Counted from the first letter of the stretch, positions 11,290 to 30,035 are shown. The stretch is 36,920 nucleotides of DNA from an uncultured Planctomycetaceae bacterium (GCA_964552875.1 CAZKIY010000003.1:1324-38243), one strand, 5' to 3'. Notes: generated by a model not told the origin, from the letters alone. Made by a program: numbers and translations.

Positions 11290-11513
11290 GGAAACGAAGC
11301 AGGGGCGCTCGTCCGCCACGGCCCAAGGCCTGTGGGAGTCGCGCCCCTGTGCAGTCCCTTCCGCGCCGAAGCGCCGACGGACGAGGTCCAGGGCCGGTCG
11401 AGTTCTCGAGTCCTTCTTGCCTGAGAGTTTCGCGAGGAGCGCAGGCCTCCTCACTTGCCCCTTCGGCGCCTGGCGCGTGGCCAGGACTCTCCCCGAGGTC
11501 GACGGCGTGTTGT
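11290..11513 (-). ncRNA. Glycine riboswitch in the gcvT leader: one canonical aptamer, a degenerate second aptamer and a terminator-like hairpin
   Basis: Reverse strand 11513-11398 reads CCUCGGGGAGAG-(hairpin CCUGGCCACGCGCCAGG)-CGCCGAAGGGGCAA-(hairpin GAGGAGGCCUGCGCUCCUC)-AAACUCUCAGGCAAGAAGGACUCGAG. This matches the glycine aptamer core GGAGAG / CCGAAGGGGCAA / CUCUCAGGCAA-AGGAC. Downstream there is a weaker copy (CCCUGGAC...GGCGC-UUCG-GCGC-GGAAGGGAC...CUCCCACAGGCC). A stem CAGGGGCGC/GCGCCCCUG (11349-11300) is followed by CUUCGUUUCC. Confidence 0.75.
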
Positions 11514-13214: not shown

Positions 13215-13449
13215 AGCGGAACCGGAGACGCACCTCAGCGCCTGCGACGTGCTCGGCCCATCGCGACAAAGTCTTGGACGGAGACCCTCGGACGGTTGGC
13301 GGTGGCGAGCCACGTCGGCGTCACCATTCGAGCGCTCCGCAGCGACCGGGTTGAGGTCGCGCGGATGCGGCCGTGAGGCGCGCGTCGGAGAGGTTGGGGC
13401 CCACCCGTGGCCTCAACAGGGCTCCCTGGCGGGGCATTGTTGCCGAGAC

Positions 13450-13484
13450 TTGACAACTTTCGGCATTCGGTCGATGCTTCGGGC
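13450..13484 (+). promoter_or_regulatory. Candidate sigma70-like promoter for parDE, giving a near-leaderless transcript
   Basis: TTGACA (13450-13455), a 17-nt spacer, then GATGCT (13473-13478). The ATG of parD lies 6 nt further on (13485). Confidence 0.3.
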
Positions 13485-13760
13485 ATGCGACAAGCGAGCG
13501 ACCTGACCACCCTGAACGTCTCCCTGCCCCGGCCGCAGCGTGAGTTCGTCGAAGCCGAAGCCGCACGCTCCGGCTGCACGACGACGAGCGAGTACGTCCG
13601 CCGGCTCATCCACGAAGCGCAGAAGCGGGCAGCGCAGGACGAGCTCGAGAGAAAACTCCTTCAGGGCCTCGACAGCGGTGATCCGATCGACGTCACGCCG
13701 GAGTACTGGGAGCGCAAGCGCCGGGAGCTCATCGAGCGGCATGCGCCGAAGAAGGCGTGA
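13485..13760 (+). CDS. parD: ParD/CopG-type ribbon-helix-helix antitoxin
   Basis: Starting from the internal ATG at 13485: MRQASDLTTLNVSLPRPQREFVEAEAARSGCTTTSEYVRRLIHEAQKR...LLQGLDSGDPIDVTPEYWERKRRELIERH. This matches the ParD4-like antitoxin pattern. The stop overlaps the toxin start. Confidence 0.75.
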   Translation: MRQASDLTTLNVSLPRPQREFVEAEAARSGCTTTSEYVRRLIHEAQKRAAQDELERKLLQGLDSGDPIDVTPEYWERKRRELIERHAPKKA

Positions 13761-14086
13761 CCCGGATTCGCGTACGACCGCAAGCCGATCGCGACATCGA
13801 TCGAGCGGCCGACGATTACGCCCACGACGCGAACGTTGACGTTGCCCTCCGGTTCCTCGCAGCGATCGACGAAGCCTTCCTCCGGTTGTGTCGCCATCCA
13901 AAGAGCGGGAGTGACGTGCAGAAGGTCAGCACACGGCTCGCTGGGCTGCGGTTCGCTCTCGTGCCCGGCTTCGAGAGCTACCTCGTGTTCCACATTCCAT
14001 CGCCGGAGTGCATCGAGATCGTCCGCATCCTGCATGGAGCGCGCGACCTGGCCCCAATCCTCGAAGAGGACCTGGACGGACAATAG
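13757..14086 (+). CDS. parE: ParE/RelE-family toxin
   Basis: 109 aa, with a GTG start overlapping the parD stop. Motifs seen: RVRPQADRDIDRAADDYA...ALRFLAAIDEAFLRLCRHPKSG...ALVPGFESYLVFHIPSPECIEIVRILHGARDL. Confidence 0.8.
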   Translation: MTRIRVRPQADRDIDRAADDYAHDANVDVALRFLAAIDEAFLRLCRHPKSGSDVQKVSTRLAGLRFALVPGFESYLVFHIPSPECIEIVRILHGARDLAPILEEDLDGQ

Positions 14087-14300
14087 GGAACGCGCCGTGT
14101 TACCTGGGATGTGACACGAGTTCCCAGCAGCCCGTGGTGAAAGTCGCCGCGCCGCTCGAGCGGGCACCGGCCGCTCGAGTGGCCTGACGCCCTCATCGCC
14201 GTCCGCGGCTGCACCTCCCTAGACGCGCGCGGGTACACCTCCGAATCGAAGCTGCCTGTAGACTCCGCATGTTCGATTCCCCCGCAGCCCCCGCTCGCGC

Positions 14301-18008
<3,708 letters not shown>

Positions 18009-18088
18009 CCCTTGGCCCTCGAACCCTCAGTCCTTTTCCCTTTCCGAAGGTGACGACATCCCTCGTCCGCCGCGTCACCGCGTTCTGA

Positions 18089-18119
18089 GCGCGGCGCAGC
18101 CGCGCGGCGACATTTTTTT
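18089..18119 (+). terminator. Candidate hairpin plus T-run between the target gene and TR
   Basis: GCGCGGC-gca-GCCGCGC (18089-18105), then ggcgaca, then TTTTTTT (18113-18119). The 7-nt gap between stem and T-run is atypical. Confidence 0.35.
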
Positions 18120-18244
18120 CTCAACCGTGGGAACCGCGTCCAAAATCTCCGCGAAGAGCTGGATTCACGCGCCTCGGATCGGAAGGCTGCCCTCATGGCC
18201 GGGGCGCGTCCCCGACCCTGGGGCACAGATCGTAAGCGTCGCTG

Positions 18245-18360
18245 ACGCGCGTTCTGCGCGGCGGGTCCTGGAACAACAACCCTGACAACTGCCGCGCCGC
18301 CAACCGCAACAGGAACGCGCCCGCCAACCGGAACAACAACGTCGGTTTCCGCGTCGCGAG
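18245..18360 (+). repeat. DGR template repeat (TR), non-coding, adenine-rich at AAC codons
   Basis: Read in the VR frame it gives [38 protein letters not shown]. It has 11 AAC codons and 26 adenines in total. Confidence 0.9.
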
Positions 18361-18382
18361 CACGCCCGAAGTCCGAGCTTGG

Positions 18383-18946
18383 GTGATGAACCAACCACAT
18401 CTCCTAGGGAGCGCATCGGGGAGTCCCGGACCTGGTCCCGAGCGCGAGATCGTTCCGCCGCCGCACGCGGGGACGGAGCCCTCGTCGCCAAACGCCTGCG
18501 AAACCCGGCCGCCTCCTCCTCACGGAAAGGCGGCCGGGCCTGCTCTCGCCGACCTCGAAGCCGAGGGCGCCGGCGCCGCGCGACCGGCGCGCGCGCCGAG
18601 GCCGACGCTTCAAGTCATCGAGAGCACGCACGACCTGATCCTCTGGGCTGTCCCCGCGATCGGGAAGTTCCCGCGACACCTGCGCTTCACGCTCGGTGAG
18701 CGCATCGAGCAGCGCCTCTACGCCCTGCTCGAGAGCCTGATCCAGGCCCGGTTCGCGAGCGGGCCCAAGAAGGTCGAGCACCTGCGCCAAGCGAACGTCG
18801 ACATCGAGATCGCGCGGCACGGAGTCCGCCTCGCCTGGCGACTGCGGGTCCTCTCCCTGAAACAGCTCGAGCACTTCGCCCGCCTCACCGACGAGGTCGG
18901 CCGGCAAGTTGGCGCCTGGATGAAGTCGGCCACGGCGGTTCGATGA
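18383..18946 (+). CDS. avd: Accessory variability determinant (Avd-like four-helix-bundle protein) with an atypical low-complexity N-terminal extension
   Basis: The C-terminal ~115 aa have the Avd-type helical pattern: [47 protein letters not shown]...[45 protein letters not shown]. Starts are GTG 18383 or ATG 18386. The stop overlaps the RT start (ATGA). Confidence 0.8.
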
Positions 18947-20004
18947 GCGCCGGCCGCTGCGTACCTCTGGGTGCGTTCGAGGAGTTGTCGAGCTTCCCGG
19001 CCTTGATCCGTGCGAGTCGTCTGGCCGCTCGCGGGAAGCGCTCGTCTCCCGACGTCGCGGCGTGGCTCGCGGACTTGGAGACCAACGTCCTGTCGCTCTC
19101 GGCGGAGCTTCGCGCCGGAGCCTGGCGTCCGGCGGGCTACCGCGTGTTCGCGATCACGGACCCCAAGCCGCGCACGATCTGCGCCGCGCCGTTCGGCGAG
19201 CGCGTGGTGCACCAAGCCTTGATCAGCGCCGTCGAGCCGACCTTCGACCGTGGGTTCATCGAGGATACTTATGCGTGTCGCAAGGGTCGCGGAACGCACG
19301 CCGCCCTGCGCCGCGTGGCGGGATGGGCCGCCACCTATCCGTGGGCGCTCAAGATGGACGTTCGGAAGTACTTCCCCTCGATCGATCACTCCATCGCCTT
19401 GGAACTCGTCGCGCGACGCGTGCGCTGCCCGCGGATCCTGCAGCTCTTCGAGGTCATCCTGGCGTCGTGGGTCAGCGACGAAGCGCCGCGAGTTCGATTC
19501 GCCGGGGACGGGCCCGGCTCGACGGAACGCCCGCGCGGATTGCCGATCGGGAATCTGACGTCGCAGTTCCTGGCGAACGTCGTCCTCGATCCCGTCGATC
19601 AGCGGATCAAGTGCGGTCTCGGGGTCCGGCCCTACGCGCGTTATTGCGACGACTTCGTCGTCTTGGCCCACGATCGTGACGGACTGCGGCGCGTTCGCGA
19701 CGAGATCGAAGCCTCCCTCGCACGGCTGCGGCTCGTCCCGCACCCCTGCAAGACGCACGTCTTCCCGACCGCGCAGGGGATTCCCTGGCTCGGCTTCGTC
19801 GTGACGCCGCGTGGCATTCGCCTGCGCGAGTCCGGTCTGCGCGGCGCTCGACGTCGACTGCGCGCATTCACGTTCCGAATCCGCCGCGGGGACGCTCGGC
19901 CCGAGCGCTGGGTCGAGTGCGTTCGCGCTTGGGCCGCGCATGCGTCCCACGCGAGCGGCGGTCTTCGCGCGCGACTCTCGGCGCAGTGGGGATACGGAAG
20001 CTGA
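18943..20004 (+). CDS. DGR reverse transcriptase
   Basis: 353 aa. RT motifs are present: [44 protein letters not shown], the DGR-specific [16 protein letters not shown], the catalytic [12 protein letters not shown], and WLGF. Confidence 0.95.
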
Positions 20005-20095
20005 TCCCGTCGACTCTCCGTCCTGCCTGAAGAGGCCCGCGCGTGAGCGCCGACCCTTCGACCTCGAGTGCGTTCGTTTCCCGGTGGGCACGAGA

Positions 20096-20320
20096 CTGGA
20101 GCTCGGACTCGAACTCCTCGACGCTCGGTAGGCTGCCCTTCAGATTCTTGGGAAGCGTCGCGAGGACCTTCGTCTCCCACTCGGCCACACCGCTCGGTTT
20201 CTTCAGGTCGCGCAGCGCGTACTCGACGACGATCTTGTCCTTCGAGCGGCACAGCCTGAACCCGATCGTCGGCTTGTCGTCGGGATGCCGCAGGAGATCG
20301 TCGACGGCGCGTGAAGCGAA
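20096..20320 (-). pseudogene. 3'-terminal remnant of a DUF1016/YhcG-type PD-(D/E)xK nuclease gene
   Basis: The reverse-strand frame, bounded upstream by a TGA at 20323-20321, reads AVDDLLRHPDDKPTIGFRLCRSKDKIVVEYALRDLKKPSGVAEWETKVLATLPKNLKGSLPSVEEFESEL. From memory this matches the conserved C-terminal ~70 aa of YhcG-like proteins (PtIGliLC--Kn--vVEYAL---kPigVa-y...LP--L---LPs-eel). No N-terminal part is present. Confidence 0.5.
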
Positions 20321-20542: not shown

Positions 20543-23500
20543 ATGCGTCTTGGGAAGTACGCGATCCCCGTCACGTTCGCCGTCCTGGCATCCTTCACCG
20601 GCTGCTCCAGCGGCTCGAGCGAGGTCACTTCGAACGCGATCTCCGCGGTCGTTCAGGACCTCGACGCGGATCCGACGGGTCAGACGACCACCATCACGTT
20701 CGTGCGCGACGACGGCCTGGCCGCCGCGACCATCGCGAACTTCGTCTCTGAGGACGGAGAGACGGCCACGTCCGTCGACGTCGCGGGCTCGGTCGTCACC
20801 GTCGAATGGGACGGGCGCGTCACGCCCTCGAACCGCGTCCGCGCGACGGGGTTGACGGACGTTCCCGAGACTTTCGTCTCTGTCACGACGAGTGACGACT
20901 CCGCGCCGACGTTCGCTATCACGTCGGGCACGCAGACCACGGGCCTCGGCGGTGACGGCGTCGTCGTCACCTGGTCCGGTCCCAACGTCGTCGAAGCCGA
21001 CGTCGAGGACTTGGACAATTGGACCCTCACGATCGACGGAACGACGATGGACCTCGACGGGTCCACGTTCGTCCTGAACCCGACCACGCAGGTCCTCACG
21101 ATCACTCTCGGGGATCTCGCGAACCTTCACGCCGACTTCGAGCTCGAAACGAGCGGTGTGCGCGGCGTCAACGACGTCACGGTCTCGTCCGCGGCCGTCG
21201 CCGGCGCGGCGAGCGGTGATGCGGTCGCGCCGACGCTCACGTCCGTGGTGCAGAACCTCTCCGAGGACGAGTTCGGCCGCGTCGTCGACTTCACGTTCAG
21301 CGAAGCGATGGATCCGGTCTTCTCGACTTCGATCGCGCACTTCACAGTCTCTGCTCCGGCCACGGCGACCACCGTCGAGCAGCCGAGCGAGAACGTGCTG
21401 CGCGTCTCGTTCAGCGCGCCGATCGTGCCCGCGGCGGACGACGTCGACCTGTCGGGAATCGTGGACGCGCACGGCAATCCGTTGACCGACGCGACCGTTG
21501 CGGTGACGCAGCCCTCGCCGGTCGCGAACGCATTCGCGGCGACGCCCGAGGCGACGACCGTGGCGGACGCGGGTGGCGACACGCTCGTCGTGGAAACGAC
21601 GCAGGCTCTCGATCCGGACACGGCCGAGGATCCGGCCAGTTGGACGCTCGTCGTCGACGGCAACACGATCGACCTCGCCGCTCAGACGCTGGCGTACGAC
21701 CTCCTCGCGAAGACGCTCACGTTAGAACTCGCGTTCGACATGTCGAACGGCGACGCGTTCACGATCACGGGCGTCTCCGTGCTCGACGTCGACGGTCAGA
21801 CGTTCGCGCAGAGCTCCGGCGGCACGGTCGCCGGCGATTCCGGTGCACCCGCACTGACCTCGATCACGCAGAACCGCAACGTCGACACGGCCGGCAAGAC
21901 GCTCGATGTCCGATTCTCCGAGGACGTGCTCGAAGTCGGTGCCGAAACGCTGGGCAACTACGTGGACAACGGCACGATGACGCTGCAATCGGCGACGCTC
22001 CTCGTCGGACTCGACACGGTGCGCCTCGTCTACGACGCGGCCGTCGTTCCGGGCGACGTCACGATCGCGATTTCGAACGTGCAGGACCTGGCCGGGAACA
22101 CGATGACGGCGGTGCCGGCAGCCACCGTGATCTCCACGGACATCGCGAGCCCGAGTCCGACCACGGCCCAGGCCGACGCTGTCGCGGGTGGAGCGAACGA
22201 CACGGTCACCGTGCAGTTCGACGACGACATGATCGAGTCCGAGATCGAGGACCCCACGAATTGGACTCTCGAGTCGCCCGTCGGCACGAGCGTCTCGACG
22301 GCGAGCGCCACGATCGCGTACACGAGTGCCTCCCGCACCGTGACGCTCGCGCTCACGAACAGCGAGAATTTCCAGCGCGGCGACGACTTCCAAGTCTCGT
22401 TCACGAGCTGCCGTGACATCGGCGGCAACGCGATCACGACCGCCACGGTGACCGGTGACGTGGATGCCGAGGACGATTCCCCCGAAGTCCACGCGGCCTA
22501 CCGCGAGAGTGCGGTGGCGAACGAGCTCGTCGTGACCTTCACGGAGCCGTGCGCGAACCTCGACGACCTCTACGACGCGACGACGAACGCGGACGGGACG
22601 CGCTACGACTTGCGCGATTCGTTCGGCGTATTCCGCGGCCGTCCGACCACGGCGACGATCGAAGAGTTCGGACTCGCCGTTCGCCTCGGATTCGGCTTCA
22701 CCGTGGGCGCCACCGACACGCTCGACGTGTACGGCACGACGGACCTGTGCGGTAACGCGCTCATCCCCGCGCTCGACGTGGCGACGGTCGCGGAAGCCAC
22801 CGCAACGCCCTCGCTCTCGACGGGGGCCTCGACCGTCACGGCCGTCTCCGGCGAGAACAACGACGAGCTCGTCGTGGTGTTCGACCGTCCGATGAACCCG
22901 TGGTTGCTCACCGATCACGACGGCTACGTGTTGTCCGGGCCGAATGGCCTGGTCGACCTGACCTATGCCACGTTGACTTTCGACGGCGCCTCGACCGTCA
23001 CGATTCGCCTGCGCGCGAACACGAACAACGACTTCACGACGGGCGCGAACTATTCGCTCTCGATCAACGAGGTCTACTCGAGCCAGGGCGTCCAACGAAC
23101 GGTCACGCAGACGGAGAATCCGATCGCGGCGATCGGTGACACCACCGCACCCGTGGTGCTCTCGACGGGCGTCCGTCTCGATCCGTCCGACGCGAACTCG
23201 CTGCTCGTCACGACGGACGAAACCGTCAACTCGACCGAGTCGGCGACCGCGGCGAACTACGACCTGAATTCCGGGACGATCGCCACGTCGGCTGAACGGA
23301 TCGGAGCGCGCGTCATTCGCGTGACCTTCGGCGTCGCGCCGATCGCCGGTGACACGCTGGACTTCACGGTTTCCGACTTGGCGTCGAACGCGACCGGCAC
23401 GATCAGCCGTGTCGTCACGGCGGCCGACGCGACTCCGCCGCTCGTGACTTCGGTCGCGGGCGTCATCGTGCCGGGCTATGGCGGCGACTACGTGGACGTG

Positions 23501-24046
23501 GTGTTCGACGAGCCCGTCACGACGAGCGTGCTGACGCTCTCGAATTGGTCGCTCCTCTCGAACGGGGTCGCCCAAGTCCTCACGGGAGCGCGCCTCACGA
23601 TCGTCGGGACGAGCAACACGGTGCGCCTGATCCTGTCGGGCTCGGCCGACCTCGACGCGAACGGCGGCATCAACGTCACGATCCAAGTGGCGTCGGACCA
23701 CTCGGGCAACGTGATTTCAGGCCCCATCGCCCTCGGCGGCTCCACGTCGGGTGATTCCACGCCTCCTTCGGAGCTCGAATCGTTCGTGAACTGGCGCGTG
23801 GACCCCACCGGGACCACGATCGACGTCTGGTTCGACGAGGACGTCGACACGGCCGTCGCGGGCACTGCGGCGAACTGGTCGGTGACCGGAGCCCCGACCG
23901 TCTCGGCCGTCGAGACGCTCGAGCGCGACCACTACCGTTTGACGCTCTCCGCGACGCCCGGGGCCTCCGACACGGTCTCGATCACGAGCCTCGACGACAC
24001 CTCGAAGAACACGTCGGGTGTCCTGACGTTCGATCCCTTGGAGTGA
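20543..24046 (+). CDS. Large lipoprotein built from tandem Ig-like (SbsA/Big-like) repeats
   Basis: ATG at 20543, preceded by GAGG. Signal and lipobox MRLGKYAIPVTFAVLASFTGC. At least 8 modules of about 110-130 aa each open with D-(S/A/T)-x-(A/P)-P-x-(L/V)-(T/S), for example DSAPTFAITS, DAVAPTLTSVVQN, DSGAPALTSITQN, DTTAPVVLSTG, DATPPLVTSVAG, DSTPPSELESF. The composition is T/V/D/A-rich, typical of beta structure. Confidence 0.8.
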   Translation: MRLGKYAIPVTFAVLASFTGCSSGSSEVTSNAISAVVQDLDADPTGQTTTITFVRDDGLAAATIANFVSEDGETATSVDVAGSVVTVEWDGRVTPSNRVRATGLTDVPETFVSVTTSDDSAPTFAITSGTQTTGLGGDGVVVTWSGPNVVEADVEDLDNWTLTIDGTTMDLDGSTFVLNPTTQVLTITLGDLANLHADFELETSGVRGVNDVTVSSAAVAGAASGDAVAPTLTSVVQNLSEDEFGRVVDFTFSEAMDPVFSTSIAHFTVSAPATATTVEQPSENVLRVSFSAPIVPAADDVDLSGIVDAHGNPLTDATVAVTQPSPVANAFAATPEATTVADAGGDTLVVETTQALDPDTAEDPASWTLVVDGNTIDLAAQTLAYDLLAKTLTLELAFDMSNGDAFTITGVSVLDVDGQTFAQSSGGTVAGDSGAPALTSITQNRNVDTAGKTLDVRFSEDVLEVGAETLGNYVDNGTMTLQSATLLVGLDTVRLVYDAAVVPGDVTIAISNVQDLAGNTMTAVPAATVISTDIASPSPTTAQADAVAGGANDTVTVQFDDDMIESEIEDPTNWTLESPVGTSVSTASATIAYTSASRTVTLALTNSENFQRGDDFQVSFTSCRDIGGNAITTATVTGDVDAEDDSPEVHAAYRESAVANELVVTFTEPCANLDDLYDATTNADGTRYDLRDSFGVFRGRPTTATIEEFGLAVRLGFGFTVGATDTLDVYGTTDLCGNALIPALDVATVAEATATPSLSTGASTVTAVSGENNDELVVVFDRPMNPWLLTDHDGYVLSGPNGLVDLTYATLTFDGASTVTIRLRANTNNDFTTGANYSLSINEVYSSQGVQRTVTQTENPIAAIGDTTAPVVLSTGVRLDPSDANSLLVTTDETVNSTESATAANYDLNSGTIATSAERIGARVIRVTFGVAPIAGDTLDFTVSDLASNATGTISRVVTAADATPPLVTSVAGVIVPGYGGDYVDVVFDEPVTTSVLTLSNWSLLSNGVAQVLTGARLTIVGTSNTVRLILSGSADLDANGGINVTIQVASDHSGNVISGPIALGGSTSGDSTPPSELESFVNWRVDPTGTTIDVWFDEDVDTAVAGTAANWSVTGAPTVSAVETLERDHYRLTLSATPGASDTVSITSLDDTSKNTSGVLTFDPLE

Positions 24047-24230: not shown

Positions 24231-25427
24231 TTGAACGCCCGAGCCCAGGACGAACGACTCTTCGTCGACGACGTCGTGACTGCTTTGACCGGCACCGTCG
24301 TGCCGTCAGGCGAACCGCGCCCGGTCTTCGAAGACCAGATGAAGCGCGCGACGGAGGAATTCGACCTCCGTACCGCCGAGGCTTTCGCGCGCGCGTTGCT
24401 CGAAGCGCTGTGCCAGGAACCGATCGATCCGCGCCGACTCGAGGCACTCCTGATCCTCGGTCTCGCGCACCCGACGATCCTCGAGCGTCATCGGATCTCG
24501 CTGCCCAAGGAAGGCGAGCGGTTGGCCGCGATGCTCGCCGCTCAGGGCCAGCACGACCGCGCGCGGACGCTCCTCGACGTGATCGCGAAGTCCGTGAGTG
24601 CCGCGGCCGAGACCGAGTTCACGGAGCCTTCTCAACCGATCCCGACCACTGCCGCCGGCCTCAAGGCGAATGGGACGTCGTCGGTTCACGCGCCCAACCC
24701 GGACGCGAATGCCGCAGGCGACCCGACCTCGCCGCATCCGGTCGAACGCGATCACGCGCGCATCGAGATGCTCTTGCGTCAGGCCGACGAGGCTGCCGCG
24801 CGTGGTCGCACGAACCAAGCGATCCTCTGCTTGCAAGAGGTGGTCACGCTCGATCGCCAGCGTCGCGACGTGACGCGGATGATCCGCGACCTCCGTTGGC
24901 AGGCACAAGACCGTCGCGCGCGCTCGATCCGTCGTTCGAAGCTCGCCGCGATGGTGATCGCGCTCACGGCCGCTGCCGCCGGCCTCGCTTGGCGCGAGCA
25001 CGGCGTCCGTCTCCGTTTCGACGCGATCCCGCGCGCCACGCCGGGCGAGCTCGCGTCGTTGCGCGCGCGCATCGAATCGATCGACGCACTGATCTCCGCC
25101 GAGAAGGCCTGGATCGGGATGGGCACGGCGCTCTCCGATCGTTCCGAGCTCGAGCAGGCGGCCATCGAGATCGAGTCGCGCGAGACGGCGAAAGCGTCCG
25201 AAGTCCGTCTCGACGTGACGCGCTCGCTCGAGATCGCCGAGTCCGCGCGCACGCGCGGGATGATGCTCGCTCAACAAGGTCGCTTCGACGATGCGCTCGT
25301 CGAACTGCGTCGCGCGCTCGAACTGGGCGGCACGGATTGGTCGGCGAGGCGCGATGTCGAGACGAACGTCGTCGCGATCGCCGAGTGGATCGAGAAGGGA
25401 CCCGAGCGCAAAGGACACGTGCGATGA
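24231..25427 (+). CDS. Hypothetical single-pass membrane protein, helical/coiled-coil; first gene of the mglA operon
   Basis: The start is uncertain: either TTG 24231, 6 nt after AGGA, or ATG 24339. TM helix LAAMVIALTAAAAGLAW. Helical, charged flanks. The stop overlaps the next start (ATGA). Confidence 0.55.
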   Translation: MNARAQDERLFVDDVVTALTGTVVPSGEPRPVFEDQMKRATEEFDLRTAEAFARALLEALCQEPIDPRRLEALLILGLAHPTILERHRISLPKEGERLAAMLAAQGQHDRARTLLDVIAKSVSAAAETEFTEPSQPIPTTAAGLKANGTSSVHAPNPDANAAGDPTSPHPVERDHARIEMLLRQADEAAARGRTNQAILCLQEVVTLDRQRRDVTRMIRDLRWQAQDRRARSIRRSKLAAMVIALTAAAAGLAWREHGVRLRFDAIPRATPGELASLRARIESIDALISAEKAWIGMGTALSDRSELEQAAIEIESRETAKASEVRLDVTRSLEIAESARTRGMMLAQQGRFDDALVELRRALELGGTDWSARRDVETNVVAIAEWIEKGPERKGHVR

Positions 25428-26512
25428 GCTTCCTGAATCGCTTCCTCTCCGGCAGCCGGACGCGCGATGCAGCGCGCCGCGTGGCCAAGGAGCCGTCCGC
25501 CGCGGCGTACGCGGAGTTGGCGCAAGAGCACGCCGTCACCGGCGATCTCGACGACGTGCTGCGTGTCACGGCTGAAGGCCTGAAGCTCTTTCCGGGCGAC
25601 GTCGAGCTCAAGCGCCTCGCGGACCGTACGCGCTCGCTGCGCGTCGAGAGCCGCATCCGCGAGCTCCAGCAGGAGCTGCGCGCAGCCCCGCGCCCCGCCG
25701 TGCGCAAGGAACTCTGCGAACTGCTCATCGAGGCCGGCCGCACGGCGCGTGCCGAAGAGGTCGCCGTCGAGTGGCACCAGAGCACGAAGAGTGGTGAAGC
25801 GGCCTACTTCCGGGCGTTGGCGCGCAGCGAGCGATTCTTCGCCGATCGTCGCCGCGACGATGGCCGCCTCGCGTTCGATCTCGCGAAGGCTGCCGAGGAC
25901 GCGCTCCCCGGCGATCCCCGTCCGGTCAAACTCTTCCTCCAGCTCTCGTCCCGAGTGGGCGCATGGGCCGACGCGCGGCGCTCGATCGCGCGGCTCCTGG
26001 AGCACTTCCCGGGTGATCCGGCTCTCGAGGCGCGGTTCCGTACCGTCCTCGCATTGGCCGAGGGATCGAAGGGGATCGATCAGGCTTTGCGCGAGGTCGA
26101 GCGCACCGGTCGGCTCGTCGACGACGCCCCCGAGAAGCGGGAAACCATCGAGTCCATCAGCGTGCGGCCGATGCTGCAGAGCCTGGTGAAGGAACCCGGC
26201 GTCCAAGCGGCCTTCTTCGCGCGCGGTGCGACGGCGCTCGTCCAAGGACCGAAGGGCGCGACGGCGGAGCGCGCGGCGCGCGGCGTGCGTGAAGTCGTCG
26301 TGGGCTGTCGTGCCGCGGCGCGCAAACTCGGGCTCGGCGCCGCACAGAGCGCGCGCCTCGAAGGCGACTTCGGAGCGCTCATGCTCGTCATCGGTGAACA
26401 GGGATCGTCCGCGCTGTGGTGCGACGGATCCGCGGATCAGCGTCACGAGGAACGACTGCGCCAACTCGCCGGCGCGGGCTCGGTGTCCACGAACACAGGA
26501 GACGTCGCGTGA
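25424..26512 (+). CDS. Helical-repeat (TPR-like) protein with a C-terminal Roadblock/LC7-like domain
   Basis: ATG at 25424. The N-terminal ~230 aa form alpha-helical repeats. The C-terminus reads MLQSLVKEPGVQAAFFARGATALVQGPKG...AARGVREVVVGCRAAARKLGLGAAQSARLEGDFGALMLVIGEQGSSALW, which follows the Roadblock pattern. The stop overlaps the next start (GTGA). Confidence 0.6.
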   Translation: MSFLNRFLSGSRTRDAARRVAKEPSAAAYAELAQEHAVTGDLDDVLRVTAEGLKLFPGDVELKRLADRTRSLRVESRIRELQQELRAAPRPAVRKELCELLIEAGRTARAEEVAVEWHQSTKSGEAAYFRALARSERFFADRRRDDGRLAFDLAKAAEDALPGDPRPVKLFLQLSSRVGAWADARRSIARLLEHFPGDPALEARFRTVLALAEGSKGIDQALREVERTGRLVDDAPEKRETIESISVRPMLQSLVKEPGVQAAFFARGATALVQGPKGATAERAARGVREVVVGCRAAARKLGLGAAQSARLEGDFGALMLVIGEQGSSALWCDGSADQRHEERLRQLAGAGSVSTNTGDVA

Positions 26513-27045
26513 AGCACATTCTCGAACCGCTGGCGCGCATCGCCGGAGTCCGCACGGCGGCGTTGATCACGACCGACGGCGTGCCGATCACCGTGCAAGG
26601 TCGCGCGGCGCCGCGTGGGGGCGGCGAATCGGGTGAGCTCGATGCGCTCGCCGCTCTGGCGGCAGCTTGGGTCGCCGAAGTGAACCGCGCGACGGCGCCA
26701 CTGGCGTGGGACGCACCGCGTCACCTCGTGCTACGCGCCGTGCGTGGGACGCTCGTCGCGATGCAGGCACCCGGTGCCTTGCTCGTCGTCGTGCTCGAAA
26801 GTGGCGCGAGCGCGGAAGAGCTGCGTTTGCCGATGGAAGCCGCGGTGGGACGCATGTTGCGCCACCTGCGTCAGCCGGCTGCCCCGCGCGCGCTGGCCGC
26901 AAAGTTCGCGCAATCGAACACCGAAGTGACTCGAACCGCGGAGCCTCGCGCTCCGCTGCCGCTCGCGCCTTCGATGCCGCAAACCGACAGGAGCCCTCAG
27001 CAAGCGCTGAGCGGAACCGAGGACCCCACGAACTCCGGGAACTGA
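26509..27045 (+). CDS. Roadblock/LC7 domain protein (MglB/MglC paralogue)
   Basis: GTG at 26509. The sequence reads LEPLARIAGVRTAALITTDGVPITVQG...DALAALAAAWVAEVNRATAPLAWDAPRHLVLRAVRGTLVAMQAPGALLVVVLESGASAEELRLPMEAAVGRM. Confidence 0.7.
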   Translation: MKHILEPLARIAGVRTAALITTDGVPITVQGRAAPRGGGESGELDALAALAAAWVAEVNRATAPLAWDAPRHLVLRAVRGTLVAMQAPGALLVVVLESGASAEELRLPMEAAVGRMLRHLRQPAAPRALAAKFAQSNTEVTRTAEPRAPLPLAPSMPQTDRSPQQALSGTEDPTNSGN

Positions 27046-27048
27046 CGC

Positions 27049-28569
27049 ATGGTCCAGATCAACTTCGCTCAGAAGCAAGTCAACGCCAAAGTCGTCTACT
27101 ACGGCCCGGGCATGTCCGGGAAGACGACGAACCTCGAGATCGTGCACCAGCGCGCTCCCGCTCCCAATCGTGGCGACCTCACGAGCATCAGCACGGACGG
27201 CGATCGCACGCTGTTCTTCGACTTCATGCCGCTCGACCTCGGAACGGTCGCGGGCATGCGGACATGCTTCCAGCTCTACACGGTGCCCGGTCAGGTCTAC
27301 TACAACTCGACACGCAAGCTCGTCCTGCAGGGCGTCGACGGTGTCGTGTTCGTGGCGGATTCGTCCGCGTCGATGGTCGAGGAGAACCTCGAGTCGATGC
27401 GCAACCTCGAGCAGAACTTGGCCGAGTACGGCAAGTCGCTCGCGACGATGCCGCTCATCATCCAATACAACAAGCGCGACCTACCGGATGCGCTGCCGGT
27501 GGAGGAGCTGCAACGGCTCCTGAATCCTTACGGCGCGCCGTGCTACGAGGCGATCGCGAACACGGGTCAGGGCGTCTTCCCGACGCTCAAGGCGCTCGCC
27601 GCGCGCGTGCTCGAATCGATCCACACGGGCAGCCGTTCGAATGCGGCGCAAGCCGGCATCCAAGCGGGTCTCGGTCAGACGGGATTCCATCAGGCTCCGA
27701 ATGGAGGAGCGCCGATTCCGCGCACGCTCCAACAGACGGGCTATCACGCCGCGCCGATGGCGCAGGCGATGCCGCCGCAGATGACGCCGCAGATGGGAGC
27801 TCAGCGAGCGGTGCCGATGCAGCCCGCGATGTCGATGCAGCCCGGCGCTCAAGTTCCGAACGGACAGCCAATGGTGCCCGGACAAACGGGGTACCACGAG
27901 TCGCTCGCCCGCACGGTCGTGCATGCACCGCCGATGCAGCCGGGCATGCACTCCGGTATGCAGCCGGGCATGCAAAACGGCATGCAGCCGGGCATGCAAA
28001 ACGGCATGCAAAACGGCATGCACGCCGGCATGCAGTCGATGCCGATGCAGCAGCCGACCGTTCAGGGCCACATGCCGCAACAGCACATGCACGGCCAGCA
28101 GCCCGGGATGATGCATCCGCAGATGCAGGTCCCCGGCCCGATCCCGCAACACACTCAGGCCGCCATGCACCAGACGGGCTACGGTTACGCGCCGCAAGGG
28201 CAACCGGGCATGCAGTCCGGGATGCCGATGCAGCCGCAGCACGGGATGCAACCGATGCAGAGCGCGCCCGCGACTCTCATGGCACCGCAGGCCCAAGCTC
28301 CGCAGGGCGGCATCCAGATGCTGCGCGTCGAAAAGGGTGGAGCCAGCGCACCGACCTCGGCTCAGAAGCCCCGTGCGGTCGCGCCGAAGCCAGTCGCGCC
28401 TGCAGCTCCGCTTGCCGCCGCCGAGACGGGAGCACGAATCCAACCGCGCAACCAACCGATGGCCACGCCCGGTTCGGGCAAGAAGCGACTCGTCTACACC
28501 GCGGTGTTCATCGTCGTCGCGCTCGGCGTCGGCGCATTCGTGGCCAAGATGGTCCTGTCCGTCCTCTGA
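27049..28569 (+). CDS. mglA: MglA-family Ras-like GTPase fused to a Met/Gln/Pro/Gly-rich low-complexity region and a C-terminal transmembrane helix
   Basis: The first ~195 aa are colinear with Myxococcus MglA: VNAKVVYYGPGMSGKTTNL, DRTLFFDFMPL, LYTVPGQVYY, VDGVVFVADS, IQYNKRDLP, GVFPTLKAL. About 285 aa of M/Q/P/G/H-rich sequence follow, ending in KKRLVYTAVFIVVALGVGAFVAKMVLSVL. Confidence 0.9.
   Translation: MVQINFAQKQVNAKVVYYGPGMSGKTTNLEIVHQRAPAPNRGDLTSISTDGDRTLFFDFMPLDLGTVAGMRTCFQLYTVPGQVYYNSTRKLVLQGVDGVVFVADSSASMVEENLESMRNLEQNLAEYGKSLATMPLIIQYNKRDLPDALPVEELQRLLNPYGAPCYEAIANTGQGVFPTLKALAARVLESIHTGSRSNAAQAGIQAGLGQTGFHQAPNGGAPIPRTLQQTGYHAAPMAQAMPPQMTPQMGAQRAVPMQPAMSMQPGAQVPNGQPMVPGQTGYHESLARTVVHAPPMQPGMHSGMQPGMQNGMQPGMQNGMQNGMHAGMQSMPMQQPTVQGHMPQQHMHGQQPGMMHPQMQVPGPIPQHTQAAMHQTGYGYAPQGQPGMQSGMPMQPQHGMQPMQSAPATLMAPQAQAPQGGIQMLRVEKGGASAPTSAQKPRAVAPKPVAPAAPLAAAETGARIQPRNQPMATPGSGKKRLVYTAVFIVVALGVGAFVAKMVLSVL
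27934..28029 (+). repeat. Eight tandem 12-bp units (ATGCAnnnnGGy) encoding (M-Q/H-x-G)n inside the mglA extension
   Basis: atgcagccgggc atgcactccggt atgcagccgggc atgcaaaacggc atgcagccgggc atgcaaaacggc atgcaaaacggc atgcacgccggc. Confidence 0.85.
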
Positions 28570-28591
28570 TCCCCCTTACGAGCCCACAATC

Positions 28592-29095
28592 ATGGCGATG
28601 ATGGACCAGAAACTGCGCAGCGAACGCCTCGTCTTCTACGAGAAGGACGTCCAGCGCATCGACGAAGAAATCGACGGCCTGCTCGAGCTCTCGGGCTCGC
28701 GCTGTGCCTTCCTGATCGACCGCGATGGTCACCTCGTGACGCGGCGCGGCGATGCGGTGCAGAACTCGCTCGAATCGATCTCTGCGCTCGTCGCGGGATC
28801 CTTCGCTGCGACCCGCGAGATGGCGCGACTGCTCGGCGAGGACGAGTTCGCGACGCTCTTCCACCAGGGCGAGCGCGAGAGCATCCAGATCTCGCTCGTC
28901 GGCGAGCGCGCGTTGCTCGCGATGGTTTTCGACCAACGGACGAATCTCGGCCTGGTGCGCTATTACGCGGTCGAGTCCGTGCGGCGCCTCACCGAGATCC
29001 TGAACGAGATCGACAAGCGCGAACCGTCGGCGCAAAGCGGTCTGTCGAGCGACTTCTCGTCGAGTGCCGCAGCCGCGCTCGACCGATTGTTCTGA
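28592..29095 (+). CDS. mglB: MglB (Roadblock/LC7 GTPase-activating partner of MglA)
   Basis: ATG at 28592. The sequence LVFYEKDVQRIDEEIDGLL...AFLIDRDGHLVTRRGD...ISALVAGSFAATREMARLLGEDEFATLFHQGERESIQISLVGERALLAMVFDQRTNLGLVRYY is closely colinear with Myxococcus MglB. Confidence 0.85.
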   Translation: MAMMDQKLRSERLVFYEKDVQRIDEEIDGLLELSGSRCAFLIDRDGHLVTRRGDAVQNSLESISALVAGSFAATREMARLLGEDEFATLFHQGERESIQISLVGERALLAMVFDQRTNLGLVRYYAVESVRRLTEILNEIDKREPSAQSGLSSDFSSSAAAALDRLF

Positions 29096-29527: not shown

Positions 29528-29722
29528 ATGGCGAGGAAGAAACAGGCGTCGAAGAAAAAGGCCGCGCAGGCGACGACGCGCCGCAAGAAGGCCGGCGCTC
29601 GTCGGACAGGTGCGCGGAAGTCGAGCGCGCGGAAGTCGAGTGCGCGGCAGTCGAGCGCGCGGAAAACGGGCGCACGGAAGAAGTCGGCCGGTCGCGCAGG
29701 TCGCAAGGCTACCCGGAAGTGA
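29528..29722 (+). CDS. Small highly basic Lys/Arg/Ala-rich protein (histone H1-like / HU-tail-like)
   Basis: 64 aa: MARKKQASKKKAAQATTRRKKAGARRTGARKSSARKSSARQSSARKTGARKKSAGRAGRKATRK. AGGAG lies 9 nt upstream. This frame has clearly higher GC3 than the other open frames here. It contains degenerate 15-bp tandem repeats (29612-29686). Confidence 0.55.
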   Translation: MARKKQASKKKAAQATTRRKKAGARRTGARKSSARKSSARQSSARKTGARKKSAGRAGRKATRK

Positions 29723-29765: not shown

Positions 29766-30035
29766 ATGAACAAGAGCCATCTCATCAACTTCGTCGCCGA
29801 CGAGCTGCGCACCTCGAAGCTTCAGGCAGGTCTCCTGGTCGAGACCGTTCTCGGCGGAATCAAGAAGGGATTGCGCGACGATCAGAGCGTCACTCTGACG
29901 GGCTTCGGGACTTTCGAAATGAAATCGCGCAAGGCTCGGCAAGGACGCAACCCGCACACGGGTGCCCCGATCGAAATCGCAGCTGGGCATCGCGTCGGTT
30001 TCCGCGTCGGTAAGGCGCTGAAGGACGCCTTGTAA
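29766..30035 (+). CDS. hup: HU-family nucleoid protein
   Basis: MNKSHLINFVADEL...VTLTGFGTFEMKSRKARQGRNPHTGAPIEIAAGHRVGFRVGKALKDAL. Confidence 0.9.
   Translation: MNKSHLINFVADELRTSKLQAGLLVETVLGGIKKGLRDDQSVTLTGFGTFEMKSRKARQGRNPHTGAPIEIAAGHRVGFRVGKALKDAL

What the first reader, a model, noticed from the sequence alone, without database searches (positions are those of the whole stretch)
24231..29095. Five-gene operon: an MglA-family GTPase with three Roadblock/LC7 proteins and a membrane anchor protein
The genes are tightly coupled, by ATGA at 25424, GTGA at 26509, a 3-nt gap before 27049 and a 22-nt gap before 28592. They encode:

- a single-pass membrane coiled-coil protein
- a TPR-like protein with a C-terminal Roadblock fold
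- a stand-alone Roadblock protein
- an MglA orthologue
- a clear MglB orthologue

In the Myxococcus polarity module, MglA/MglB and the Roadblock paralogue MglC are encoded separately. Here one GTPase is packaged with three Roadblock-fold partners plus membrane tethers. This is reminiscent of multi-Roadblock GTPase platforms such as Ragulator-Rag. The arrangement suggests a membrane-localised GTPase switch of unknown output.
Basis: partly seen in the sequence, partly recalled or inferred. Interest (0 to 1): 0.65.

Follow-up and report, generated by a model that had tools for sequence, protein, structure and literature searches.

The report
Membrane-anchored MglA switch with three Roadblock partners
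This planctomycete operon encodes a Ras-like MglA GTPase that is fixed to the cell membrane by its own long flexible tail, together with its MglB off-switch, two further Roadblock-fold proteins and a membrane-spanning TPR protein; the layout is conserved across many genomes and has not been described.

Summary
Five tightly coupled + strand genes occupy 24231-29095, with the stated ATGA and GTGA overlaps and 3-nt and 22-nt gaps.

- **GTPase:** it is a Group-1 MglA (E 3e-71 to Thermus MglA; DRT and TVPGQ motifs present).
- **Last gene:** it is MglB (E 1e-25).
- **Extra ORFs:** both carry Roadblock domains. This rests on Pfam hits in 31/39 and 23/38 orthologues, an AlphaFold model (pLDDT 92) and profile comparisons.

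The MglA is 506 aa: a G domain, about 285 aa of low-complexity linker and a C-terminal transmembrane helix. This tail anchor is kept in about 58 complete orthologues.

Gene order is conserved in all 80 related species-level Planctomycetota genomes, including cultured Engelhardtia mirabilis. The g2/g3 overlap is kept in 76/76 loci.

A core of TPR-Roadblock, Roadblock, tail-anchored MglA and MglB recurs in distant lineages, such as Candidatus Schekmanbacteria. There it sits beside a PATAN-TPR-beta-propeller protein instead of gene 1.

Best reading: a membrane-tethered MglA/MglB switch with a second Roadblock platform and an envelope-spanning adaptor. Its output is unknown. I rate it a new variant of a known kind, interest about 0.6.

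The parts
20543..24046 (+). g0: 1167-aa predicted lipoprotein (signal peptide plus Cys, then an S/G-rich stretch). It has no Pfam, NCBIfam or PDB match. It is conserved directly upstream of the operon within this clade only. A link to the module is inferred, not shown.
   Evidence: present in about 59 loci; lipobox-like N-termini in orthologues; median gap to g1 203 nt.
24231..25427 (+). g1: 398-aa bitopic membrane protein. The N-terminal half is helical and TPR-like, with the conserved motif RRDVxRMIRDLR just before the TM helix. The C-terminal part is a long helix plus a TPR pair. Predicted topology is N-in/C-out.
   Evidence: TPR_2 E 6.6e-9; conserved TM, net-positive N flank; AF2 pLDDT 88.5, all-helical; only generic TPR fold matches.
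24942..24992 (+). g1 transmembrane helix (residues 238-254, LAAMVIALTAAAAGLAW).
25424..26512 (+). g2: 362-aa TPR-Roadblock fusion. Residues 1-228 are TPR-like helices; residues 247-358 form the Roadblock domain.
   Evidence: (AF2 pLDDT 92.2).
26162..26497 (+). g2 Roadblock domain (alpha-beta-beta-alpha-beta-beta-beta-alpha). It carries the invariant stretch RG-TALVQGP-G-TAER.
   Evidence: secondary structure. (Foldseek 7yh1_A Asgard Roadblock, E 1.1e-3, TM 0.67, rmsd 2.9 A). (23/38 orthologues hit Robl_LC7). (hhalign to g3: 94.7%, E 5.7e-8). (invariant columns).
26509..27045 (+). g3: 178-aa stand-alone Roadblock protein (domain residues 1-122) with a variable, probably disordered tail of about 55 aa.
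   Evidence: profile vs PDB 7f8m Robl_LC7, E 5.3e-5; 31/39 orthologues; hhalign to MglB: 92%, E 6e-7.
27049..27633 (+). g4 G domain: Group-1 MglA, with P-loop GPGMSGKT, the DRT intrinsic arginine finger, TVPGQ and NKRD.
   Evidence: E 3e-71 to T. thermophilus MglA, 1.2e-69 to M. xanthus MglA. Motif definitions from PMC4316618.
27634..28488 (+). g4 linker: about 285 aa, Q/P/A/G/M-rich and low-complexity. It includes a 12/24-nt tandem repeat at 27934-28035 that encodes MQPG/MQNG units.
   Evidence: (composition; tails of 165-390 aa in orthologues).
28489..28569 (+). g4 C-terminal transmembrane tail anchor (LVYTAVFIVVALGVGAFVAKMVLSVL), preceded by GKKR, plus the stop codon.
   Evidence: mean hydropathy 2.49 over 19 aa. 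A TM helix ending 0-8 aa from the C-terminus is present in about 58 complete orthologues.
28592..29095 (+). g5: 167-aa MglB (Roadblock fold plus a C-terminal helix ending ...LDRLF).
   Evidence: Robl_LC7 E 3.7e-12; NCBIfam MglB E 1e-30; E 1e-25 to M. xanthus MglB, aligned to the last residue.

Best explanation
The operon encodes a membrane-tethered version of the bacterial MglA/MglB small-GTPase switch.

**Shown**
- g4 is a catalytically complete Group-1 MglA.
- Its G domain is joined by a long disordered linker to a C-terminal transmembrane tail anchor. The G domain therefore faces the cytoplasm and stays on the inner membrane in both nucleotide states.
- g5 is MglB.
- g2 and g3 carry two further Roadblock domains. 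They are closer to each other than g2's domain is to MglB.
- g1 is a single-pass membrane protein.

**Inferred**
- The g5 dimer is the GAP that turns MglA-GTP off, as in Thermus and Myxococcus.
- g2's Roadblock domain and g3 form a second Roadblock dimer. They are made in equal amounts through the invariant stop/start overlap. This dimer docks onto the G domain or onto MglB and acts as an exchange-promoting or sequestering platform. g2's TPR arm serves as the scaffold or effector site.
- g1 holds this platform at the membrane and links it through its periplasmic TPR-containing domain to the envelope, possibly to the conserved upstream lipoprotein g0.

Because MglA cannot leave the membrane, spatial information would be carried by where it is GTP-bound, not by where it sits. 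The GTP form would recruit cytoplasmic effectors to that patch of membrane. The likely output is surface or envelope behaviour: type IV pili, adhesion, or cell-shape and protrusion dynamics. The output itself is not shown.
For: **Identity of the parts:**

**Tail anchor:** it is conserved in about 58 complete orthologues although the linker sequence and length vary from 165 to 390 aa. Basic residues lie on the cytoplasmic side.

**Constraint on the G domain:** it is 77-99% identical across a clade in which g1 falls to 27% and g2 to 41%. This fits a G domain that must satisfy several partners.

**Translational coupling:**
- g1/g2 overlap in 64/74 loci
- g2/g3 overlap in 76/76 loci
- g3-g4 gap mostly 1-6 nt
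- g4-g5 gap mostly 9-22 nt

**Recurrence outside the clade:** the four-gene core (TPR-Roadblock, Roadblock, tail-anchored MglA, MglB) recurs in six of seven neighbourhoods examined outside the clade. Their GC content runs from 37% to 70%, and one is Candidatus Schekmanbacteria. Homology was confirmed by hhalign: g2 94%, E 9e-8 over the full length; g3 98%, E 5e-13.

**g1 topology:** conserved TM helix with a net-positive N flank.

**Precedents from the literature:**
- MglB dimer as GAP for MglA with an intrinsic Arg finger (PMC4316618).
- TPR proteins as MglA-GTP partners: Bd2492 and SgmX (PMC3983030; PMC7519303).
- MglB with GEF-like behaviour, and Roadblock partners that sequester it (PMC13408092).
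Against: - No interaction, GAP, GEF or localisation data exist for any of these proteins.
- g2's Roadblock domain aligns only weakly to MglB itself (hhalign 8%, E 0.004).
- g3 shows no specific similarity to MglC.
- Nothing in the window encodes a motility or pilus machine, so the output is a guess.
- Housekeeping neighbours (gcvPHT, HU, metG) are also syntenic in 42-58 loci. Synteny alone therefore does not tie g0 to the module.
- No RNA data cover the locus, and no promoter was recognised.
Confidence: 0.6

Rival explanations
1. This is an ordinary MglA/MglB polarity module, as in Myxococcus or Thermus. The other genes are only neighbours, and the long tail of g4 is an annotation or assembly artefact, for example a fused small membrane ORF.
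For: The G domain and MglB are close to the characterised proteins. Unrelated housekeeping neighbours are also syntenic in this clade.
Against: The g4 reading frame is continuous from the G domain to the TM helix in about 58 independent genomes, although linker lengths differ. It is also continuous in 46 of the best 150 representative clusters. The g2/g3 stop-start overlap is invariant and g1/g2 is nearly so. The g2-g3-g4-g5 core recurs in unrelated genomic contexts and across GC contents from 0.37 to 0.70.
Confidence: 0.05
2. g2 and g3 do not act on MglA. Instead they form an MglC-like adaptor that binds and sequesters the MglB dimer and tunes GAP activity in space. g1 is merely their membrane receptor. 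Nucleotide exchange on MglA is spontaneous or MglB-assisted.
For: In M. xanthus the Roadblock paralogue MglC binds MglB, not MglA (PMC4719450 and PMC9481161, listed). RomR sequesters MglB (PMC13408092). g3 is detectably related to MglB (92%, E 6e-7), as expected of a paralogue that could stack on it.
Against: The g3 profile shows no specific similarity to MglC against PDB. The most invariant patch in g2 (RG-TALVQGP-G-TAER) co-occurs with an exceptionally conserved G domain, which would fit a G-domain contact equally well.
Confidence: 0.2
3. This is a conservon-like transmembrane signalling system. g1 senses a periplasmic or envelope cue, relays it through the Roadblock proteins to the GTPase, and the output is regulatory (gene expression or second messenger) rather than cell polarity or motility.
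For: The logic is the same as in the actinobacterial conservons: a membrane sensor, a Roadblock protein and an MglA-family GTPase (PMC4316618; PMC13343842). g1 has a predicted periplasmic domain.
Against: There is no histidine-kinase-like CvnA and no DUF742 CvnC. The GTPase is Group 1 (RT, TVPGQ, NKRD), not Group 2 (motif definitions). No transcription factor or cyclase lies in the conserved block.
Confidence: 0.1
4. This is a Ragulator-Rag-like nutrient-signalling platform.
For: Several Roadblock domains sit with a membrane-anchored GTPase. There is a weak Pfam Gtr1_RagA hit (21.5 bits against a cut-off of 22).
Against: Rag GTPases carry their own C-terminal Roadblock domain and work as obligate heterodimers. 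Here there is one GTPase with a disordered tail. The G domain is about 65% identical to MglA. No kinase or transporter partner is conserved.
Confidence: 0.03

Closest known systems
MglA/MglB polarity switch of Myxococcus xanthus and Thermus thermophilus (Group-1 MglA; PDB 3t12, 6izw)
   Same: The G domain is about 65% identical, with the intrinsic arginine finger (DRT), TVPGQ and NKRD. An MglB gene is adjacent, with a Roadblock fold and a C-terminal helix.
   Different: Canonical MglA is a soluble 195-aa protein that cycles between cytosol and pole. This one carries a 311-aa tail with a transmembrane anchor. It is co-translated with two further Roadblock proteins and a membrane TPR protein.
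MglC (Roadblock paralogue of MglB) and RomR/RomX/RomY of M. xanthus
   Same: Additional Roadblock-fold or adaptor proteins modulate the MglA/MglB pair.
   Different: MglC is encoded away from mglBA and is a plain Roadblock homodimer. Here one extra Roadblock domain is fused to a TPR array and the other follows it with an overlapping start codon. No RomR, RomX or RomY homologue is in the cluster, and no specific similarity to MglC was seen.
Group-1 MglA loci with two MglB genes and/or a PATAN protein (e.g. Chloroflexus <PATAN>MglA<MglB-MglB; table S2 of Wuichet & Sogaard-Andersen 2014)
   Same: One MglA is coupled to more than one Roadblock gene. In the outgroup versions of this module (L081, L084-L086, L089) a PATAN-domain protein is adjacent.
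   Different: The listed MglAs are 191-196 aa. No TPR-Roadblock fusion or tail anchor was reported. Planctomycetes were not in that survey.
Long MglA paralogues such as SofG (MXAN_6703, 298 aa) and MXAN_2693 (372 aa, next to PATAN)
   Same: A Group-1 G domain with terminal extensions.
   Different: SofG has no cognate MglB. I know of no report of a transmembrane anchor in it (own knowledge). The present G domain is much closer to MglA proper.
TPR effectors of MglA-GTP: Bd2492 (Bdellovibrio) and SgmX (Myxococcus)
   Same: TPR proteins work with MglA at a membrane-proximal site.
   Different: Those TPR proteins are encoded elsewhere, with tamAB. They have no Roadblock domain and no demonstrated homology to g1 or g2.
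Eukaryotic membrane-anchored small GTPases with Roadblock/Longin partners (Rab or Ras with a hypervariable linker plus lipid anchor; SR-beta with the SRX domain of SR-alpha; Ragulator-Rag)
   Same: The design principle is shared: a G domain, a flexible linker and a C-terminal membrane anchor, regulated on the membrane by Roadblock/Longin-fold platforms (PMC3747258).
   Different: The anchor here is a protein TM helix, not a prenyl group, and the G domain belongs to the MglA family. This is an analogy; no closer relationship to these eukaryotic systems was tested.
Actinobacterial conservons (CvnA-D)
   Same: A membrane protein, a Roadblock protein and an MglA-family GTPase in one operon.
   Different: There is no histidine-kinase-like CvnA and no DUF742 CvnC, and the GTPase is Group 1, not Group 2.

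Membership tests
MglA family, Group 1 (Wuichet & Sogaard-Andersen 2014) | P-loop GxxxxGKT and G4 NKxD | tested here: met
   GPGMSGKT and NKRD are in the alignment to 3t12_A.
MglA family, Group 1 (Wuichet & Sogaard-Andersen 2014) | Intrinsic arginine finger next to the G2 threonine (RT), and the G3 motif TVPGQ | tested here: met
   DRTLFFDF and YTVPGQ are present. The definition comes from PMC4316618. Both are also kept in outgroup tail-anchored MglAs.
MglA family, Group 1 (Wuichet & Sogaard-Andersen 2014) | Gene coupled to an mglB gene | tested here: met
   g5 lies 22 nt downstream. The coupling is conserved in 59 loci.
MglA family, Group 1 (Wuichet & Sogaard-Andersen 2014) | Single-domain soluble protein of about 190-200 aa | tested here: not met
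   g4 is 506 aa, with a 285-aa linker and a C-terminal TM helix.
MglA family, Group 1 (Wuichet & Sogaard-Andersen 2014) | GTP binding and MglB-stimulated hydrolysis | not testable with these tools
   Needs biochemistry.
MglB | Roadblock/LC7 domain with full-length similarity to characterised MglB, including the C-terminal helix | tested here: met
   Robl_LC7 E 3.7e-12. E 1e-25 to M. xanthus MglB, aligned over residues 12-167 to its last residue.
MglB | NCBIfam equivalog score (NF052242, cut-off 200 bits) | tested here: not met
   The score is 107 bits, E 1e-30. The model's name suggests it was built for the Thermus-type protein, so I read this as divergence, not as exclusion.
Roadblock/LC7 (g3) | Match to Pfam PF03259 and to solved Roadblock proteins | tested here: met
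   The window's own sequence scores 22.2 bits against a cut-off of 23. 31/39 orthologues match, best E 4.4e-10. The profile hits PDB 7f8m at E 5.3e-5. hhalign to MglB gives 92%.
Roadblock/LC7 (g2 C-terminal domain) | alpha-beta-beta-alpha-beta-beta-beta fold and profile similarity | tested here: met
   AF2 topology at pLDDT above 90. Foldseek 7yh1_A: TM 0.67, rmsd 2.9 A. 23/38 orthologues hit PF03259. hhalign to g3 gives 94.7%. The window's own sequence alone does not hit Pfam.
MglC | Specific sequence similarity to M. xanthus MglC | tested here: inconclusive
   The g3 profile against PDB lists no chain named MglC at E <= 1. I could not retrieve an MglC sequence for a direct comparison.
Conservon (CvnA-D) | Histidine-kinase-like CvnA, DUF742 CvnC and a Group-2 MglA (NxFD G4, no Arg finger) | tested here: not met
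   None of the five proteins has an HATPase or DUF742 hit. The GTPase has NKRD and RT.
Ragulator-Rag | Rag GTPase heterodimer with its own C-terminal Roadblock domains, on a LAMTOR scaffold | tested here: not met
   There is one GTPase with a disordered tail. Gtr1_RagA scores 21.5 bits, below the cut-off. MAPKK1_Int scores E 0.023, below the cut-off, on g5 only.
Anti-phage defence systems (PADLOC) | Match to any PADLOC model | tested here: not met
   Only two chance-level hits, E > 0.003, both on g1.

The most novel reading that the evidence does not exclude
The tail-anchored MglA with its hypervariable-like linker and Roadblock platforms is a bacterial counterpart of eukaryotic Rab/Arf-type membrane-identity switches. 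Where it is GTP-loaded on the inner membrane, it recruits TPR scaffolds and cytoskeletal or envelope machinery. In this way it steers the membrane and cell-shape remodelling (protrusions, 'trunk' formation, amoeboid-like movement) reported for the Saltatorellus/Engelhardtia group of planctomycetes. No regulator is named for that behaviour in the preprint I read (10.1101/817700).
Probability: 0.12. Interest if true: 0.9.

Novelty: new variant of a known kind. Interest (0 to 1): 0.6.

Why it matters
MglA/MglB is the model for how bacteria use a Ras-like switch to set cell polarity. In every studied case the GTPase is soluble, and its location carries the information.

A permanently membrane-anchored MglA implies a different operating principle, one closer to eukaryotic Rab, Ras and Arf systems. 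It is conserved across at least 80 species-level genomes. Its four-gene core is shared with distant lineages. It is always packaged with a second Roadblock pair.

It also gives a concrete, testable candidate regulator in a planctomycete group with a cultured member, Engelhardtia mirabilis, which is known for unexplained shape-shifting. Finally, it adds bacterial data to the question of how GTPase-Roadblock/Longin platforms arose.

Tried and rejected
- **Structure prediction of g1 with locus-derived orthologues:** I repeated it with database homologues.
- **Complex prediction:** no multimer tool was available.
- **Transcript evidence:** the locus is found only in DNA metagenomes from microbial mats and fresh water, with no RNA runs.
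- **Promoter and terminator scan:** no sigma-70-like promoter. There is only a weak hairpin at 29059-29083.
- **g0:** no hit in Pfam, NCBIfam or PDB.
- **g1 fold search:** only generic TPR matches with very high rmsd.
- **Defence-system reading:** rejected.
- **Last homologue search:** I ran it with a mixed-lineage g2 profile to learn the taxonomy of the outgroup modules. It was swamped by the window's own clade and added only that L084 is also Planctomycetota.
- **Motility, pilus or PATAN genes in the window:** none found. The neighbours are glycine cleavage, sulfatase, acyl-CoA dehydrogenase, glycosyltransferases, HU and MetRS.
- **Literature:** no paper in the searchable library combines MglA with a tail anchor or analyses MglA in Planctomycetes. 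The Saltatorellota preprint does not mention MglA or GTPases.

Full report
**1. What is in the sequence**

- ATGA at 25424
- GTGA at 26509
- TGA-cgc-ATG at 27043-27051
- a 22-nt gap before 28592

Shine-Dalgarno-like AAGGA or AGGAG sequences precede g1, g2 and g3 (read directly). The unusual TTG start of g1 at 24231 is supported because its orthologues begin at the same position with the same MxxxxxxxxLFVDDVVTALT N-terminus.

**2. Identity of the five products**

*g4 (27049-28569, 506 aa).* Residues 1-195 match Thermus and Myxococcus MglA at E 3e-71 and 1.2e-69. The P-loop GPGMSGKT, the DRT intrinsic arginine finger, TVPGQ and NKRD are all present. These are the features that define Group-1 MglA in Wuichet & Sogaard-Andersen 2014 (PMC4316618). 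The remaining 311 residues are a Q/P/A/G/M-rich low-complexity stretch. It contains a 12/24-nt tandem repeat and ends in GKKR-LVYTAVFIVVALGVGAFVAKMVLSVL, a strongly hydrophobic helix at the very C-terminus. This is a tail anchor.

*g5 (167 aa).* This is MglA's partner MglB:
- Robl_LC7 E 3.7e-12
- E 1e-25 to M. xanthus MglB, aligned through the C-terminal ...LF
- NCBIfam MglB E 1e-30, although below that equivalog's cut-off

*g3 (178 aa).* On its own it scores 22.2 bits on Robl_LC7, against a cut-off of 23. The Roadblock call is supported by further evidence:
- 31 of 39 orthologues hit the family, best E 4.4e-10.
- The family profile finds solved Roadblock proteins (7f8m, E 5.3e-5).
- It aligns to the MglB profile at 92% probability.

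*g2 (362 aa).* On its own it shows only TPR repeats. Three results add a Roadblock domain:
- 23 of 38 orthologues hit Robl_LC7.
- The AlphaFold2 model (pLDDT 92.2) has TPR-like helices at 1-228 and an alpha-beta-beta-alpha-beta-beta-beta-alpha domain at 247-358. Foldseek matches that domain to an Asgard Roadblock protein (7yh1_A, TM 0.67, rmsd 2.9 A).
- Its profile aligns to g3 at 94.7%, but only weakly to MglB (8%, E 0.004).

*g1 (398 aa).* It has a C-terminal TPR motif (E 6.6e-9) and one hydrophobic helix (residues 238-254). That helix is conserved in its orthologues and has a net-positive N-terminal flank. The flanking charge predicts a cytoplasmic N-terminal half and a periplasmic domain of about 140 aa. 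The AF2 model (pLDDT 88.5) is all-helical. A single 53-residue helix carries the conserved RRDVxRMIRDLR motif into the membrane. Fold search gave only generic TPR matches.

**3. Conservation**

A scan of one genome per species with a g2 profile returned 80 loci. All are Planctomycetota MAGs, plus the cultured Engelhardtia mirabilis Pla133.

Every locus that is long enough has g1-g2-g3-g4-g5 in this order. Identity to the window proteins varies by gene:

| Protein | Identity range or lower bound |
|---|---|
| g1 | down to 27% |
| g2 | down to 41% |
| g3 | down to about 35% |
| MglB | 58-98% |
| G domain | 77-99% |

The junctions are conserved as well:

| Junction | Result |
|---|---|
| g1/g2 | overlap in 64/74 loci |
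| g2/g3 | overlap in 76/76 loci |
| g3-g4 | mostly 1-6 nt apart |
| g4-g5 | mostly 9-22 nt apart |

In about 58 complete g4 orthologues the tail varies from 165 to 390 aa and is not alignable. It always ends in a TM helix 0-8 residues from the C-terminus, preceded by Lys/Arg. Two loci deviate, L016 and L065, and these look like frameshifts or assembly errors.

A 1167-aa predicted lipoprotein, g0, has no recognisable domain. It lies upstream in about 59 loci, at a median gap of 203 nt. However, gcvPHT, HU and metG are also syntenic in this clade. I therefore treat g0's link to the module as a lead only.

**4. The module is wider than this clade**

An exhaustive HMMER search with the G domain against 1.84 billion representatives gave 6833 hits. 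Nearly all of the best 150 are 300-717 aa long with the G domain at the N-terminus.
- 46 of them end in a TM helix.
- Many others end in a basic, amphipathic KKGFFxxLF-type motif.

I looked up seven tail-anchored examples outside the clade. Six share the order PATAN-TPR-beta-propeller protein (about 800-1090 aa), TPR-Roadblock (359-400 aa), Roadblock (116-117 aa), tail-anchored MglA, MglB. In L084 the PATAN protein follows MglB instead of leading. On the short L088 contig the upstream ORF has no Pfam record, and the L085 contig ends before any MglB gene. Their GC content runs from 0.37 to 0.70. One is Candidatus Schekmanbacteria and one is another Planctomycetota lineage.

hhalign confirms that the L081 proteins are homologues:
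- g2 homologue: 94%, E 9e-8, full length
- g3 homologue: 98%, E 5e-13

The conserved core is therefore g2-g3-g4-g5. In the window's clade, g1 (and perhaps g0) occupies the place held by the PATAN protein elsewhere. One amphipathic-tail example (L083) has TPR, PATAN, long MglA and MglB genes but no g2/g3 pair.

**5. How it most likely works**

Shown:
- a catalytically complete Group-1 MglA
- a tail anchor that fixes it to the cytoplasmic face of the inner membrane
- a cognate MglB
- two further Roadblock domains, encoded with obligatory translational coupling
- a bitopic membrane TPR protein

Inferred from the established behaviour of the family:
- The MglB dimer is the GAP.
- g2's Roadblock domain and g3 form a second dimer. 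It binds either the G domain or MglB and biases exchange or GAP access.
- The TPR arrays act as scaffold or effector sites. TPR proteins Bd2492 and SgmX are known MglA partners.
- g1 anchors the platform and connects it to the envelope.

Recent work shows that MglB itself can behave as both GAP and GEF, and that a partner can sequester it (PMC13408092). Either role for g2/g3 therefore has precedent.

Because this MglA cannot leave the membrane, the switch would mark membrane patches by nucleotide state and recruit cytoplasmic factors there. The output is unknown. PATAN domains in the sister modules, and the biology of the only cultured relatives, point towards pili, adhesion or shape dynamics. 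Those relatives show shape-shifting and trunk formation and encode PilB and PilT, and no regulator is named in the preprint (10.1101/817700). This is conjecture.

**6. Comparison with what is known**

The system is a member of the Group-1 MglA/MglB family by every sequence criterion except the single-domain architecture.
- It is not a conservon: there is no CvnA or CvnC, and the GTPase is the wrong MglA group.
- It is not Ragulator-Rag: there is no Rag heterodimer and no LAMTOR scaffold.
- It is not a defence system.

Wuichet & Sogaard-Andersen recorded that a few Group-1 MglAs are coupled to two MglB-family genes and that PATAN genes are sometimes adjacent. Their table lists longer paralogues such as SofG, MXAN_2693 and Fisuc_0226. 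Planctomycetes, a TPR-Roadblock fusion and a transmembrane anchor do not appear there. The library holds no paper that combines MglA with a tail anchor or that analyses MglA in Planctomycetes.

The design of G domain, flexible linker and C-terminal membrane anchor, with Roadblock/Longin-type regulators, parallels eukaryotic Rab and Ras and also SR-beta/SRX. This is an analogy, not membership.

**7. Verdict**

I rate it a new variant of a known kind. It is moderately to highly interesting because it is widespread, cleanly defined and undescribed, and because it changes the expected operating mode of a well-studied switch. No functional evidence exists yet.

Noticed in passing
window 20543-24046 (+): A 1167-aa predicted lipoprotein (MRLGKYAIPVTFAVLASFTGC-SSGSS...) has no Pfam, NCBIfam or PDB match. 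It is conserved immediately upstream of the operon in about 59 related genomes and absent from the outgroup modules. It could be a periplasmic or surface partner of g1.
   Followed up: partly
window about 13200-20300, including 14301-18008 (+) and 18718-20091 (-): This stretch carries a 1235-aa Ser/Thr kinase fused to an FGE-sulfatase-type domain, plus a 457-aa ORF with no family match. It has no counterpart in the related loci, where gcvPHT and the ORF equivalent to 11586-13214 lie directly upstream of g0. It looks like a lineage-specific insertion.
   Followed up: partly
window 11398-11504 (-): A glycine riboswitch aptamer (Rfam RF00504, 57 bits, E 2.3e-9) lies upstream of the gcvT-gcvH-gcvP genes on the minus strand.
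   Followed up: no
window 29528-29722 (+) and 29766-30035 (+): A 64-aa Lys/Arg/Ala-rich ORF lies just upstream of an HU gene (Bac_DNA_binding E 8.5e-26). The ORF has a weak, below-cut-off resemblance to the histone H1-like protein Hc2 (E 0.004).
   Followed up: partly
window 27934-28035 (+): A 12/24-nt tandem repeat (8.5 or 4.2 copies) encodes MQPG/MQNG units inside the MglA linker. This suggests that the linker changes length by slippage, which fits the 165-390 aa range among orthologues.
   Followed up: partly
proteins P0287-P0390; locus L083:3881-5734: A second large class of long MglA proteins ends in a basic, amphipathic C-terminal motif (e.g. KKGFFSKFFN, KKKGFFDGLFKR) instead of a TM helix. 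The motif looks like a membrane-targeting helix. The one neighbourhood examined has TPR, PATAN, long MglA and a 251-aa MglB.
   Followed up: partly
loci L081:1218-4379, L084:7846-11115, L085:2023-4443, L086:1201-4341, L089:1332-4430: A large PATAN (PatA_N)-TPR-PQQ-type beta-propeller protein accompanies the tail-anchored MglA core in distant lineages. It is missing from the window and its close relatives. In L089 a gene with a faint prepilin N-methylation motif lies next to it.
   Followed up: partly
window 25424-25470; alignment A5, columns 1-60: g2 and its distant homologues all begin with a short M-[GSA]-hydrophobic-hydrophobic segment followed by basic residues (MSFLNRFLSGSR, MGLFENMRRRRE, MGLLSNLLNNRE). 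This may be an N-terminal amphipathic helix.
   Followed up: no
loci L065 and L016: In L065 the MglA reading frame runs on into the MglB sequence, giving a 584-aa product that ends in the MglB C-terminus. In L016 the frame ends early at 252 aa. Either could be an assembly or frameshift error or a real variant.
   Followed up: no
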